In this document: piece after piece, positions 27,252 to 45,976 of the stretch
Layout: each line of letters starts with the position of its first letter
How positions within the stretch are numbered: position 1 is the stretch's first letter
NCBI RefSeq assembly: GCF_009914755.1
Contig: NC_060926.1
Direction: 5' to 3' (one strand)
DNA length: 64,000 nt
DNA from: the human T2T-CHM13v2.0 reference genome, Homo sapiens
Translations under genes and position numbers: made by a program
Notes under the pieces: generated by a model
Databases searched by the model: none
What the model was told of the DNA's origin: nothing
The model's input: only the letters and a program-made list of their open reading frames with translations

Positions 27252-30200
27252 ATTTTTTTTATTTTTTTTAAGAATCAATATTGTTTATTTTTCTTATTAT
27301 TATTATACTTTAAGTTTTAGGGTACATGTGCACAATGTGCAGGTTAGTTGCATATGTATACATGTGCCATGCTGCTGTGCTGCACCCATTAACTCGTCAT
27401 TTAGCATTAGGTATATCTCTTAATGCTATCCCTCCCCCATCCCCCCACCCCACAACAGTCCCCAGAGTGTGATGTTCCCCTTCCTGTGTCCATGTGTTCT
27501 CATTGTTCAATTCCCATCTATGAGTGAGAATATGCGGTGTTTGGTTTTTTGTCCTTACGATAGTTTACTGAGAATGATGCTTTCCAGTTTCATCCATGTC
27601 CCTACAAAGGACATGAACTCATCATTTTTTATGGCTGCATAGTATTCCATGGTGTATATGTGCCACATTTTCTTAATCCAGTCTATCATTGTTGGACATT
27701 TGGGTTGGTTCCAAGTCTTTCCTATTGTGAATAGTGCTGCAATAAACATACGTGTGCATCTGTCTTTATAGCAGCATGATTTATAGTCCTTTGGGTATAT
27801 ACCCAGTAATGGGATGGCTGGGTCAAATGGTATTTCCAGTTCTAGATCCCTGAGGAATCGCCACACTGACTTGCACAATGGTTGAACTAGTTTACAGTCC
27901 CACCAACAGTGTAAAAGTGTTCCTATTTCTCCACATCCTCTCCAGCACCTGTTGTTTCCTGACTGTTTAATGATTGCCATTCTAACTGGTGTGAGATGGT
28001 ATCTCGTTGTGGTTTTGATTTGCATTTCTCTGATGGCCAGTGATGATGAGCATTTTTTCATGTGTCTTTTGGCTGCATAAATCTCTCCTTTTGAGAAGTG
28101 TCTGTTCATATCCTTTGCCCACTTGTTGATGGGGTTGTTTGTTTTTTCTTGTAAATTTGTTTGAGTTCATTGTCGATTCTGGATATTAGCCCTTTGTCAG
28201 ATGAGTAGGTTGCGAAAATTTTCTCCCATTTGGTAGGTTGCCTGTTCACTCTGATGGTAGTTTCTTCTGCTGTGCAGAAGCTCTTTAGTTTAATGAGATC
28301 CCATTTGTCAATTTTGTCTTTTGTTGCCATTGCTTTTGGTGTTTTAGACATAAAGTCCTTGCCCATGCCTATGTCCTGAATGGTAATGCCTAGGTTTTCT
28401 TCTAGGGTTTTTATGGTTTTAGGTCTAACGTTTAAGTCTTTAATCCATCTTGAATTGATTTTTGTATAAGGTGTAAGGAAGGGATCCAGTTTCAGCTTTC
28501 TACATATGGCTAGCCAGTTTTCCCAGCACCATTTATTAAATAGGGAATCCTTTCCCCATTGCTTGTTTTTCTCAGGTTTGTCAAAGATCAGATAGTTGTA
28601 GATATGCGGTGTTATTTCTGAGGGCTCTGCTCTGTTCCATTGATCTATATCTCTGTTTTGGTACCAGTACCATGCTGTTTTGCTTACTGTAGCCTTGTAG
28701 TGTAGTTTGAAGTCAGATAGTGTGATGCCTCCAGCTTTGTTCTTTTGGCTTAGGATTGACTTGGTGATGCAGGCTCTTTTTCGGTTCCATATGAACTTTA
28801 AAGTAGTTTTTTCCAATTCTGTGAAGAAAGTCATTGGTAGCTTGATGGGGATGGCATTGAATCTATAAATTACCTTGGGCAGTATGGCCATTTTCATGAT
28901 ATTGATTCTTCCTACCCATGAGCATGGAATGTTCTTCCATTTGTTTGTATCCACTTTTATTTCATTGAGCAGTGGTTTGTAGTTCTCCTTGAAGAGGTCC
29001 TTCACATCCCTTGTAAGGTGGATTCCTAGGTATTTTATTCTCTTTGAAGCAATTGTGCATGGGAGTTCACTCATGATTTGGCTCTCTGTTTGTCTGTTAT
29101 TTGTGTATAAGAATGCTTGTGATTTTTGTACATTGGTTTTGTATCCTGAGACTGCTGAAGTTGCTTATCGGCTTAAGGAGATTTCGGGCTGAGATGATGG
29201 GGTTTTCTAGATATACAATCATGTCGTCTGCAAACAGGGACAATTTGACTTCCTCTTTTCCTGACTGAATACCCTTTATTTCCTTCTCCTGCCTAATTGC
29301 CCTGGCCAGAACTTCCAACACTATGTTGAATAGGAGTGGTGAGAGAGGGCATTCCTGTCTTGTGCCAGTTTTCAAAGGGAATGCTTCCAGTTTCTGCCCA
29401 TTCAGTATGATATTGGCTGTGGGTTGGTCATAGATAGCTCTTATTATTTTGAGATACGTCCCATCAATACCTGATTTATTGAGAGTTTTTATCATGAAGG
29501 TTGTTGAATTTTGTCAAAGGCCTTTTCTGCATCTATTGAGATAATCATGTGGTTTTTGTCTTTGGTTCTGTTTATATGCTGGATTACATTTATTGATTTG
29601 CTTATATTGAACCAGCCTTGCATCCCAGGGATGAAGCCCACTTGATCATGGTGGATAAGCTTTTTGATGTGCTGCTGGATTCGCCTTGACAGTATTTTAC
29701 TGAGGATTTTTGCATCAATGTTCATCAAAGATATTGGTCTAAAATTATCTTTTTTGGTTGTGTCTCTGCCCAGCTTAGGTATCAGGATGATGCTGGCCTC
29801 ATGAGTTAGGGAGGATTCCCTCTTTTTCTACTGATTGGAATAGTTTCAGAAGGAATGGTACCAGTTCCTCCTTGTACCTCTGGTAGAATTTGGCTGTGAA
29901 TCCATCTGGTCATGGACTCTTTTTGGTTGGTAAGCTATTGATTATTGCCAGAATTTCAGATCCTGTTATTGGCCTATTCAAAGATTCAACTTCTTCCTGG
30001 TTTAGTCTTGGGAGGGTGTATGTGCCGAGGAATTTATCCATTTCTTCTAGATTTTCGAGTTTATTTGCATAGAGGTGTTTGTAGTATTCTCTGATGGTAG
30101 TTTGTATTTCTGTAGGATCGGTGGTGATATCCCCTTTATCATTTTTTATTGTGTCTATTTGATTCTTCTCCCTTTTTTTCTTTATTAGTCTTGCTAGCAG

Positions 30201-30995
30201 TCTATCAATTTTGTTAATCCTTTCAAAAAATCAGCTCCTGGATTCATTAATTTTTTGAAGGGATTTTTATGTCTCTATTTCCTTCAGTTCTGCTCTGATT
30301 TTAGCTATTTCTTGCCTTCTGCTAGCTTTTGAATGTGTTTGCACTTGCTTTTCTAGTTCTTTTAATTGTGATGTTAGGGTGTCAATTTTGGATCTTTCCT
30401 GCTTTCTGTTGTGGGCATTTAGTGCTATAAATTTCCCTCTACACACTGCTTTGAATGTGTCCCAGAGATTCTAGTATGATGTGTCTTTGTTCTCGTTGGT
30501 TTCAAAGAACATCTTTATTTCTGTCTTCATTTCGTTATGTATCCAGTAGTCATTCAGGAGCAGGTTGTTCAGTTTCCATGTAGTTGAGCGGTTTTGAGTG
30601 AGTTTCTTAATCCTGAGTTTTAGTTTGATTGCACTGTGATCTGAGAGACAGTTTGTGATAATTTCTGTTCTTTCACATTTGCTGAGGAGAGCTTTACTTC
30701 CCACTATGTGGTCAATTTTGGAATAGGTGTGGTGTGGTGCTGAAAAAAATGTATATTCTGTTGATTTGGGGTGGAGAGTTCTGTAGATGTCTGTTAGGTC
30801 CGCTTGGTGCAGAGCTGAGTTCAATTCCTGAGTATCCTTGTTAACTTTCTGTCTCGTTGATCTGTCTAGTGTTGACAGTGGGGTGTTAAAGTCTCCCATT
30901 ATTATTGTGTGGGAGTCTAAGTCTCTTTGTAGGTCACTCAGGACTTGCTTTATGAATCTGGGTGCTCCTGTATTGGGTGCATATATATTTAGGAT
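27252..30995 (-). mobile_element. 5'-truncated L1 (L1PA3/PA4-like), 3.7 kb, ORF2 disrupted
   Basis: ORF2 fragments from mid-EN (ILNIYAPN) to the C-terminus in several frames. TSD CAAAC[G/T]TGTATTTTT (27237-27251 / 30996-31010), EN site TTTTT/AA. Confidence 0.95.
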
Positions 30996-31694
30996 CAAAC
31001 TTGTATTTTTAAACTCCAAGCTATTTACAGAAGACAGTTTACATCCAGAGCAGCCCAATGGTGTATGTCCTAGTTGATAAAGGAATTCAGTATCTGGAGA
31101 TGTCAGGCAAAGTTCCAGTGAGGAAGGAGCACTAAGTGACTTTAAAAAGATAAAGAAGAAGAAGAAGAAGGGGGAAAGGGAAGAAAACCTCCCTCGTTCC
31201 TGAGGAAGCAGGACATAAAAACCACTGTGGGGTCACCCTGGTAAAGAGGGTACAAATGAATGAAATCCCTTTCTTTCCATGGATAAGTCAATAATGTGGT
31301 GGGTTTTCTTTCCAGGATAGAGGACAGAGAAGAAACCAAAGAGTTATGTAGTCAAGTTGTTGAATACTTTTAGCTGAGTAATATTGCCAGTGAGGGTTAC
31401 AAACATGCTTTGATTTTCTCACAGACATTAAAAAACCATATTTAATCTAGCTTGGCTGCAGTAGAGTGGAGTAGATAGAAAAGGGGCACAAGTTTAGTGA
31501 CCTCGCACCTGGCCATGTCCTAGAAAAGTGGTCAGATGGATAATGTACAGAGTAAAGCTCACTGGGTATAATACACAGATGCAGGCAGGAGACCAGCAAC
31601 ATGTACCTGAGAGGCAAATTTGACCCTTGGTCAGCCAAATTAAGACTTCTAGACCCAGAAGTTCTAGGGTGGTGGACATAATGGACTTGCATGG

Positions 31695-44500: not shown

Positions 44501-45376
44501 ATTCAGGACATAGGCATGGGCAAGGACTTCATGTCTAAAACACCAAAAGCAATGGCAACAAAAGACAAAATTGACAAATGGGATCTCATTAAACTAAAGA
44601 GCTTCTGCACAGCAGAAGAAACTACCATCAGAGTGAACAGGCAACCTACAAAATGGGAGAAAATTTTTGCAACCTACTCATCTGACAAAGGGCTAATATC
44701 CAGAATCTACAATGAACTCAAACAAATTTACAAGAAAAAAACAAACAACCCCATCAAAAAGTGGGCGAAGGACATGAACAGACACTTCTCAAAGGAAGAC
44801 ATTTATGCAGCCAAAAAACACATGAAAAAATGCTCACCATCACTGGCCATCAGAGAAATGCAAATCAAAACCACAATGAGATACCATCTCACACCAGTTA
44901 GAATGGCAATCATTAAAAAGTCAGGAAACAACAGGTGCTGGAGAGGATGTGGAGAAATAGGAACACTTTTACACTGTTGGTGGGACTGTAAACTAGTTCA
45001 ACCATTGTGGAAGTCAGTGTGTCGATTCCTCAGGGATCTAGAACTAGAAATACCATTTGACCCAGCCATCCCATTACTGGGTATATACCCAAAGGACCAT
45101 AAATCATGCTGCTATAAAGACACATGCACACGTATGTTCATTGCGGCACTATTCACAATAGCAAAGACTTGGAACCAACCCAAATGTCCAACAATGATAA
45201 ACTGGATTAAGAAAACGTGGCACATATACAGCATGGAATACTATGCAGCCATAAAAAATGATGAGCTCATGTCCTTTGTAGGGACATGGACGAAATTGTA
45301 AATCATCATTCACAGTAAACTATCACAAGAACAAAAAACCAAACACGACATATTCTCACTCATAGGTGGGAATTGA
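41547..45376 (+). pseudogene. L1 ORF2p (EN-RT), disabled
   Basis: MTGSNSHITILTLN start, TA slippage frameshift near 41890, stops at 42533 and 44216, catalytic FADD>FAVD at 43646-43657. Confidence 0.95.
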
Positions 45377-45976
45377 ACAATGAGAACACATGGACACAGG
45401 AAGGGGAACATCACACTCTGGGGACTGTTGTGGGGTGGGGTGAGGGGGAGGGATAGCATTGGGAGATATACCTTAATGCTAGATGACGAGTTAGTGGGTG
45501 CAGCGCACCAGCATGGTGCATGTATACATATGTAACTAACCTGCACATTGTGCACATGTACCCTAAAACTTAAAGTATAATAATAATTTTTTTAAAAAGT
45601 ATTTGGTTTGGTACAAATTTTATTTTTGATTCAATATGGGTTTCACTGAAAAGTCAATAGATTTTTCAGTAAAAACCATAAAATCCTTGCTAATGCTTGG
45701 GAATAATTAGACTTCAGATGAGTAATGTTAAACCTATGGGAGTCAATTCAAAATATAAGCAGAATAAACAGATAATCTTTCATTTCTTCAGGATAATATA
45801 GCGTTACTACCTGTATCTTATTTCAAATACTGTAAATGTCTCCCACCAAAAGAAATCATTTAAATAAAAATAACAATATTTTAAACTAATGCATAATCTG
45901 ACCATTAGTATGTATCTAAATATGAGAAATATGTATCTAAAAATTAAAATGGATGGCCCAGATTAATAAAAAATAC

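What the first reader, a model, noticed from the sequence alone, without database searches (positions are those of the whole stretch)
27252..45596. Inverted, independently inserted L1s share about 15 private substitutions: candidate local L1-L1 gene conversion
Seen: L1 B (27252-30995, minus) and L1 C (39449-45596, plus) have different TSDs and different 3'UTR diagnostics (B: CTAAATGACGAGTTAATG; C: CTAGATGACGAGTTAGTG). Yet over about 2.2 kb of ORF2 they share non-CpG variants: CACAACAGAA (C 42461 / B ~30407), ACATAAAAATCCC (42601/30261), TTCTGGC (42921/29947), MIKTLNKSG (43381/29471), RQEC (43521/29351), TTCAGT (43611/29261), CACAAATAAC (43777/29095), GIHLT (43861/29011), LHYKATVS (44171/28681), ATKD plus GATCTCATT (44561/28291) and CTAEE (44611/28261). 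Where they overlap these sites, other L1s in the window mostly show the usual states ([14 protein letters not shown] and LYYKATVT at 10.9 kb; CTAKE at 6.3, 12.4 and 58.0 kb). For the three most 5' sites there is no in-window control and I rely on recalled consensus. Inference: non-crossover sequence transfer between neighbours 8.5 kb apart. Each element's TSD pair still matches, which argues against a single crossover. Each copy also has private lesions, so the event is old or patchy.
Basis: partly seen in the sequence, partly recalled or inferred. Interest (0 to 1): 0.8.

Follow-up and report, generated by a model that had tools for sequence, protein, structure and literature searches.

The report
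Old gene conversion between neighbouring L1s
Two separately inserted, dead L1 retrotransposons lying 8.5 kb apart in opposite orientation share about 2.2 kb of otherwise unique decay mutations, best explained by one element having been copied into the other; this is a clean example of a known process, not a new one.

Summary
B (27296-30995, minus) and C (39449-45596, plus) have separate target-site duplications and different 3' ends. Yet they share 12 rare non-CpG states between C 42466 and C 44615. The next-best of 1128 pairs of L1 copies shares 3.

Genome-wide exact-word searches found no third carrier. Only B and C occur in all six intersected word lists, and four other copies occur in two lists each. 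The two states at C 43388 and 43407 occur together only in B and C.

Eleven of the 12 states change the ORF2 protein and one is a shared stop codon. They therefore look like decay, not the signature of an active source lineage.

Trees disagree along the element. B groups with C in the tract (support 0.99). In the 3' kilobase B groups with unlinked copies of another subfamily type (0.92).

Best reading: an old non-crossover gene conversion of 2.15 to about 2.5 kb between neighbours. The direction is unresolved.

This is a new instance of a known process, so interest is modest.

Unexplained in passing: carriers of single rare L1 states cluster regionally. Nine carriers of one state lie within 0.5 Mb around the window.

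The parts
27296..30995 (-). L1 B: 5'-truncated L1PA copy (ORF2 from mid-gene to the 3'UTR). An A-rich tail runs down to about 27252.
   Evidence: blastn to C. Alignment span 30995-27296. In the ORF2 frame it has 5 stops and 4 frameshifting indels.
27237..27251 (-). B target-site duplication, 3' side
   Evidence: 15-base repeat that matches 30996-31010 with 1 mismatch.
30996..31010 (-). B target-site duplication, 5' side
39449..45596 (+). L1 C: full-length L1PA copy with a 5'UTR start and a very short tail
   Evidence: Junction sequences. Self-match 39381-45660 and homology to the other L1s of the window. The part that overlaps B has 5 in-frame stops and 3 indels.
39435..39450 (+). C target-site duplication, 5' side
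45597..45611 (+). C target-site duplication, 3' side (one base shorter than the 5' copy)
42466..44615 (+). Shared tract in C, minimum extent from the first to the last shared rare state. The outer limits are about 42226 and 44757.
   Evidence: 12 shared rare states. The limits come from the nearest sites where B carries another lineage's state and C does not.
28267..30408 (-). Shared tract in B, minimum extent. The outer limits are about 28126 and 30648.
   Evidence: The same alignment columns, in B coordinates.
42604..42606 (+). ORF2 stop codon shared by B and C (CAA to TAA). In B it lies at 30267-30269 on the minus strand.
   Evidence: Codon projection. It is the only one of each element's 5 stops that both share.
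31100..38500 (.). Single-copy spacer between the two elements
   Evidence: The genome search found only the self-match plus old dispersed repeats at 67-87% identity.

Best explanation
B and C are two independent L1PA insertions of different subfamily type. After both were in place, a break or gap in one was repaired using the other as template. The template lay 8.5 kb away in inverted orientation. Repair ended without crossover, as in synthesis-dependent strand annealing.

A tract of at least 2150 and at most about 2530 bases of ORF2 was copied. It carried the donor's accumulated decay mutations, including a premature stop codon. Both copies then diverged by about 2% each.

Shown: independent insertion, exclusive sharing, the mosaic tree pattern, and the decay-like nature of the shared states. 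Inferred: the repair pathway and the date, which on a recalled neutral rate of about 1e-9 per site per year is very roughly 15-20 million years ago. The direction of transfer is unresolved.
For: 1. Independent insertions. Each element has its own target-site duplication pair, and the spacer is single copy in the genome. The 3'UTR words differ, and both are major types: the B-type 26-mer occurs 4042 times and the C-type 3449 times.

2. Sharing beyond chance. B-C share 12 rare non-CpG states in 2172 tract columns. The maximum among the other 1127 pairs is 3.

3. Exclusive in this genome. Only B and C are in all six intersected word lists. The 43388+43407 pair is found in 2 of 69 matches at up to 1 mismatch; the other 67 carry one state each. 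The usual form occurs 5269 times.

4. Mosaic structure. Shared rare states for B-C number 1, 12 and 0 in the 5', tract and 3' segments. For B-L016 they number 0 in 1503 tract columns and 7 in 968 3' columns. FastTree gives (B,C) 0.99 in the tract and (B,L016) 0.92 in the 3' segment, where C sits with L048 and L055 at 0.76. The probability that all 12 fall in the tract rather than the 3' segment is 0.012. B's 40-mer at 28095-28134 is a subfamily word with 286 copies, and C lacks it.

5. The shared states look like decay. Eleven of 12 change the protein, one is a stop codon, and one hits the RQGC motif of the reverse transcriptase. The private changes are 21:10 in B and 28:7 in C, non-synonymous to synonymous.

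6. A reciprocal crossover exchanges sequence and does not make two copies alike. B also has two switch points, so a non-reciprocal transfer is needed. This step is inference.
Against: 1. Overall B-C identity is not raised. It is 95.78%, which ranks 42nd of 60 for B and 47th of 60 for C. This is because panel copies have short branches: panel pairs average 97.58%.

2. B-C differences are only slightly fewer inside the tract (94 of 2172 columns) than outside (77 of 1583). From the counts, my arithmetic gives z of about 0.8, which is not significant.

3. One site inside the tract (C 42859) has B with the L049-like state and C with the majority state. Either the tract is patchy or a later change occurred.

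4. Some of the 12 states are not unique one at a time or in pairs.
- The 42604+42610 pair sits in 4 unlinked older copies.
- The 44180+44199 pair sits in 8 other copies.
- The 43780 state marks an older sub-lineage.
- The 42466 state is regionally common.

5. Exact-word searching is imperfect. A third member would keep each word with a probability of roughly 0.4, by my estimate. One extra carrier or a truncated one could be missed, and older subtypes with other differences inside the words are not seen.

6. No other primate genome or human haplotype could be examined.
Confidence: 0.8

Rival explanations
1. B and C are siblings, or parent and offspring, from a very small source lineage that carried the 12 states, and they landed 12 kb apart by chance. 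B's 3' and 5' ends, or C's, were altered later by some other event.
For: Small sub-lineages that share 2 or more rare states among unlinked copies do exist. Examples are L072 on another chromosome with L073, and L067 with L070. The stop-bearing 30-mer is present in 4 unlinked copies, so defective variants did spread.
Against: No other carrier of the haplotype was found. The haplotype holds an ORF2 stop and 11 of 12 protein changes, so it is unlikely for an element copying itself. The 3' kilobase of B and of C belongs to different major types, so a conversion or recombination is needed anyway. The chance that two members of a two-member lineage fall within about 12 kb is about 1e-5, by my arithmetic.
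Confidence: 0.07
2. Both elements received the tract from a third local L1 that is now lost or was not sampled. Alternatively, the sharing is part of a wider regional homogenisation of L1s.
For: Nine L1s within C2:118.06-118.57 Mb carry the C 42466 state on different backgrounds.
Against: The fetched regional copies (L071, L073-L077) carry none of the other 11 states. They share no common haplotype in the 400 bases upstream.
Confidence: 0.08
3. Retrotransposition-coupled chimera. While one element was being made, reverse transcriptase switched from its own RNA to a transcript of the neighbour and back.
For: None specific. It would also give a mosaic.
Against: It needs two template switches and a local transcript of a neighbour. 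B has ordinary target-site duplications and an ordinary 3' end. No call supports it.
Confidence: 0.03
4. Parallel mutation at hypermutable sites, or an assembly chimera.
For: CpG sites do recur in parallel in the panel.
Against: All 12 states are non-CpG, and 7 of the 12 are transversions. The null maximum is 3. The two copies differ at 94 of 2172 tract columns, so this is not a recent collapse.
Confidence: 0.01

Closest known systems
Non-allelic gene conversion between neighbouring Alu elements. This is Aleshin and Zhi 2010 as described in passages of PMC6598467 and PMC8230782. I read only those passages, not the original paper.
   Same: Non-diagnostic mutations are shared by nearby dispersed repeats. 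The rate is said there to be raised within about 10 kb, and B and C lie 8.5 kb apart. The transfer is non-reciprocal and the flanks are kept.
   Different: Here the repeats are L1s, the tract exceeds 2 kb (longer than a whole Alu), and it is a single resolved event rather than a genome-wide statistic.
[quoted passage not shown] This is Tremblay, Jasin and Chartrand 2000, seen only as a citation and one sentence in PMC1920257.
   Same: It is L1-to-L1 templated repair without crossover, which is the mechanism proposed here.
   Different: That was an experimental, somatic event in mouse, and the passage mentions very short tracts. This one is a germline-fixed, old, long tract between linked inverted copies.
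Intra-chromosomal gene conversion into an L1 locus (locus NCLI34 in Sen et al. 2007, PMC1920257, passage read).
   Same: A diverged L1 segment in an L1 locus is traced to another L1 on the same chromosome.
   Different: That case is a 377-base segment in a non-classical insertion. Here both partners are classical insertions with target-site duplications.

Membership tests
Non-allelic (ectopic) gene conversion between dispersed repeats | The two copies are independent paralogues, not one duplicated segment. | tested here: met
   The target-site duplications are separate. The spacer is single copy. The 3' subfamily types differ.
Non-allelic (ectopic) gene conversion between dispersed repeats | A bounded tract holds variants shared by the two copies and absent from other family members. 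| tested here: met
   There are 12 shared rare states in the tract, 1 in the 5' segment and 0 in the 3' segment. Only B and C are in all six word lists.
Non-allelic (ectopic) gene conversion between dispersed repeats | The tree changes along the sequence. | tested here: met
   The tract gives (B,C) at 0.99. The 3' segment gives (B,L016) at 0.92, with C elsewhere.
Non-allelic (ectopic) gene conversion between dispersed repeats | Divergence between the partners is lower inside the tract than outside. | tested here: inconclusive
   4.3% inside against 4.9% outside, which is not significant (counts).
Non-allelic (ectopic) gene conversion between dispersed repeats | The pre-conversion state is seen at the orthologous locus of another species or haplotype. 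| not testable with these tools
   No other primate genome or human haplotype is held.
Minor L1 source lineage (retrotransposition siblings) | The same haplotype is present in unlinked copies. | tested here: not met
   The copies that share two states were fetched, and they lack the rest.
Minor L1 source lineage (retrotransposition siblings) | The shared states are compatible with a working ORF2. | tested here: not met
   There is a shared stop codon, and 11 of 12 changes alter the protein.
Segmental duplication | Homology extends into the flanks. | tested here: not met
   The flanks and target-site duplications differ. The spacer has no paralogue.
L1 (LINE-1) retrotransposon insertion | Target-site duplication, an A-rich 3' end and ORF2 homology. 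| tested here: met
   The precise subfamily names were not determined, because no repeat library is held.

The most novel reading that the evidence does not exclude
The B-C event may be one visible case of a much wider effect. In every list of carriers of a rare L1 ORF2 state that I made, carriers lie near one another far more often than a uniform spread would give. For the C 42466 state there are 31 pairs under 300 kb against 0.52 expected. For the C 43780 state there are 12 against 0.39. Nine carriers of one state lie in 0.5 Mb around this window, on different subfamily backgrounds. In the two places tested the flanks are single copy, so plain duplication does not explain them. If real, L1 sequences are exchanged or seeded locally over tens to hundreds of kilobases. 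That is well beyond the roughly 10 kb range reported for Alu.
Probability: 0.2. Interest if true: 0.65.

Novelty: new member of a known kind. Interest (0 to 1): 0.35.

Why it matters
Ages and subfamily assignments of L1 copies assume that each copy decays on its own. A 2-kb transfer between neighbours breaks that assumption. It moves a stop codon and other lesions from one element to another, and it can make an element look like a member of the wrong lineage. A well-bounded example with both partners, both sets of target-site duplications and a genome-wide check for other carriers is a useful reference case. It shows that long non-crossover tracts can form between inverted L1s a few kilobases apart. 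It does not change what is known about the mechanism.

Tried and rejected
1. Overall identity as a test. C ranks 42nd of 60 among B's matches. I first read this as evidence against a relationship. I dropped that reading when one search showed panel copies are much less diverged (97.6% between pairs). Identity rank is therefore uninformative.

2. Direction of transfer.
- I first inferred C to B from the 7 rare states that B shares with L016 only in the 3' segment.
- One search then showed B's word there occurs 286 times. It is a subfamily marker, not a sibling marker, so that argument fails.
- I also looked for a link between tract states and B's 3' type. On contigs C1-C4, 2 of 20 carriers of the C 43780 word and 1 of 20 carriers of the C 44615 word also have B's 40-mer. 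I made this comparison by eye from the lists, and it is too weak to use.
- Private-mutation densities in the flanks and the tract do not separate the two directions.

3. Segmental duplication, rejected.

4. Regional copies as donors, rejected.

5. The tool for earlier findings was not open.

6. The genome search with long DNA queries scores only 40 of about 15,000 candidates. It lists neither partner among the other's matches, so it cannot rank relatives. I used exact-word searches instead.

7. The panel lacks older subfamilies. Unlinked older copies share 6-9 states that are rare in the panel. Rarity in the panel alone was therefore not trusted.
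Full report
**What is there**

The window holds a 5'-truncated L1 on the minus strand (B, 27296-30995) and a full-length L1 on the plus strand (C, 39449-45596). B aligns to C 41877-45587 at 95.4% over 3713 columns. Each element has its own target-site duplication. B's is a 15-base repeat at 27237-27251 and 30996-31010 with one mismatch. C's lies at 39435-39450 and 45597-45611.

The 7.4 kb between them (31100-38500) is single copy in the genome apart from old dispersed repeats. These are therefore two separate insertions, head to head, and not a duplicated segment.

**Checking the observation**

To judge whether the shared states are private, I needed unlinked copies.

- The genome search returned matches to a 601-base piece of B and to the C tract.
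- I fetched 58 of them over the full span of B.
- After trimming to the L1 part I aligned them with B, C and the window's L1 at 10.9 kb. That last copy was kept out of all counts.

Of 3755 compared columns, B and C both match the panel majority at 3551. They agree against it at 33. B alone differs at 88, C alone at 80, and both differ in different ways at 3.

Twelve of the 33 shared states are carried by 0-2 of 46-58 panel copies. They lie at C 42466, 42604, 42610, 42923, 43388, 43407, 43527, 43780, 43864, 44180, 44199 and 44615. The other 21 are carried by 3-22 panel copies and are mostly subfamily states.

**Is it more than chance?**

I counted non-CpG states carried by 2-5 of the 60 sequences. 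B and C share 12 in the tract. The other 1127 pairs of the 48 sequences that cover the tract have a mean of 0.14, a 99th percentile of 2 and a maximum of 3.

One result first looked contrary. B-C identity over the whole span is 95.78%, only 42nd of 60 for B and 47th of 60 for C. This is explained by branch lengths. Panel copies are 97.58% alike on average (1035 pairs), while B and C are each about 96% alike to them. Any long-branched copy is therefore closest to short-branched ones.

**Is the haplotype elsewhere in the genome?**

The panel is biased and lacks older subfamilies. Unlinked older copies fetched later share 6-9 states that are rare in the panel. So I searched the whole genome for exact words identical in B and C.

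| Word (states it holds) | Places in the genome |
|---|---|
| 30-mer, 42604+42610 | 6 |
| 40-mer, 44180+44199 | 10 exact (343 at up to 1 mismatch) |
| 32-mer, 42466 | 74 |
| 33-mer, 43780 | 64 |
| 31-mer, 43527 | 56 |
| 33-mer, 44615 | 78 |

The 37-mer with 43388+43407 matches 69 places at up to one mismatch. Only B and C have both states, and the other 67 have one each. The usual form of that word occurs 5269 times.

I intersected the six lists by position. Only B and C are in all six. Four other copies are in two lists and none is in three. I fetched those four, the four other carriers of the 30-mer, seven carriers of the 32-mer and one further carrier of the 40-mer. None carries more than the one or two states that selected it.

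The search is not perfectly sensitive. By my estimate, a third member with about 2.5% private change would keep each word with a probability of about 0.4. Many unlinked carriers are excluded, but a single extra or truncated carrier is not.

**The mosaic**

Shared rare states for B-C number 1, 12 and 0 in the 5' segment (590 columns), the tract (2172) and the 3' segment (968). In the 3' segment B instead shares 7 with L016 and 3 each with L049 and L041, all unlinked. It shares none with these in the tract.

Trees built per segment agree. Sequences with more than 10% missing were dropped, which left 43, 49 and 59 sequences.

- In the 5' segment, B sits with L049 (0.80) and C is next (0.74).
- In the tract, B sits with C (0.99).
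- In the 3' segment, B sits with L016 (0.92) inside a group with L049 and L041, and C sits with L048 and L055 (0.76).

The 3' differences are at subfamily level. B's 3'UTR 26-mer occurs 4042 times and C's 3449 times. B's ORF2-end 40-mer, which C lacks, occurs 286 times.

Two elements from different subfamily stages cannot share 12 states by descent unless the thousands of copies made in between also carry them, and they do not. Some recombination is therefore required. The only two carriers lie 8.5 kb apart, so exchange between them is the simplest account.

A reciprocal crossover between inverted repeats would swap sequence and invert the spacer, but it would not make the copies alike. B also shows two switch points. 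The event was therefore a non-reciprocal, non-crossover transfer (inference).

The tract is at least C 42466-44615. Its outer limits, from the nearest sites where B keeps another lineage's state, are about C 42226 and 44757.

**Nature of the shared states**

I projected the states on the ORF2 frame. Eleven of the 12 change the protein. One turns a glutamine codon into a stop (C 42604). One changes the glycine of the RQGC motif. I recognise that motif as part of the reverse-transcriptase core from memory, not from a call.

Seven of the 12 are transversions. Private changes in the tract are 21 non-synonymous to 10 synonymous in B, and 28 to 7 in C. The shared states therefore look like neutral decay.

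Each element has 5 in-frame stops over the compared span, and only this one is shared. All indels are private. This fits transfer of DNA from an already decaying copy, followed by independent decay.

One caution applies. The stop-bearing 30-mer is also in four unlinked, older copies. That pair of states may therefore predate the donor's insertion.

**What does not fit neatly**

- Divergence inside the tract (94 of 2172 columns) is only slightly below that outside (77 of 1583), and the difference is not significant (counts).
- One tract site (C 42859) has B with the L049-like state and C with the majority state.
- I could not fix the direction of transfer. My first argument for C to B failed once one search showed that the B-L016 states are subfamily markers. 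Links between tract states and B's subfamily are too weak (2 of 20 and 1 of 20 carriers on contigs C1-C4, compared by eye).

**Comparison with what is known**

Passages in two reviews describe raised gene conversion among Alu elements within about 10 kb, citing Aleshin and Zhi 2010. One of them says most such work concerns Alu.

A passage and reference in Sen et al. 2007 cite repair of a broken LINE by conversion from other LINEs in mouse cells. The same paper describes an intra-chromosomal conversion into one human L1 locus. A 2026 preprint lists gene conversion among the processes that blur old L1 histories (one sentence read).

My three literature searches found no paper that describes this locus or a genome-wide study of L1-L1 conversion between neighbours. 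These searches cover open-access text only and do not show absence. The event is therefore a new, well-resolved instance of a known process.

**Seen in passing**

Carriers of single rare L1 states are regionally clustered. The clearest case is the C 42466 state. Nine of its 74 carriers lie in C2:118.06-118.57 Mb, including B and C. They sit on different subfamily backgrounds and share nothing else with one another.

Two tested flanks are single copy. I have no explanation. The expectation I used assumes a uniform spread and ignores uneven L1 density.

Noticed in passing
window 30408 (B) and 42466 (C); also G000:C2:118059264, 118085330, 118239942, 118307755, 118332347 and 118573386 (loci L071, L073-L077): The 32-mer with C at this ORF2 site occurs 74 times in the genome. 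Nine of the carriers lie within 0.5 Mb around the window, and three more lie at C2:113.9-116.2 Mb. The carriers sit on different subfamily backgrounds and share no other rare state and no upstream haplotype. Unexplained.
   Followed up: partly
genome-wide lists: Carriers of a given rare L1 state are often neighbours. Pairs under 300 kb number 31 against 0.52 expected, 12 against 0.39, 3 against 0.30 and 4 against 0.58 under a uniform spread. Each count includes the B-C pair. Examples are three carriers at C2:56.63-56.89 Mb and five at C11:83.8-87.2 Mb. The flank of one of them (L079) is single copy. There was no correction for L1 density or for segmental duplications.
   Followed up: partly
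L074 (C2:118305586-118307796) and L075 (C2:118332337-118334547); L076 and L077 (C2:118059254 and 118085320): Two more neighbouring L1 pairs share states that are absent or nearly absent from the panel. The first pair lies 24.6 kb apart and inverted, and shares alignment columns 1563, 1810 and 1872. The second lies 26 kb apart in direct orientation, and shares columns 1380 and 1649. Whether these states are exclusive genome-wide was not tested, and older-subfamily states are a likely confounder.
   Followed up: no
window 42593-42622 (C) and 30251-30280 (B); L067-L070: The 30-mer that holds the shared ORF2 stop codon and a neighbouring change also occurs in four unlinked, older L1 copies, on contigs C3, C4, C10 and C24. 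They share none of the other tract states. A stop-bearing variant present at several loci suggests either spread in trans or further conversions.
   Followed up: partly
window 45585-45611: C has almost no A tail. The 3' end runs into TTTTTTT AAAAA and then directly into the target-site duplication.
   Followed up: no
window 27252-27295: Between the end of B's 3'UTR and its A-rich tail lies a short non-A stretch of about 25 bases. It may be a degenerate tail or a very short 3' transduction.
   Followed up: no
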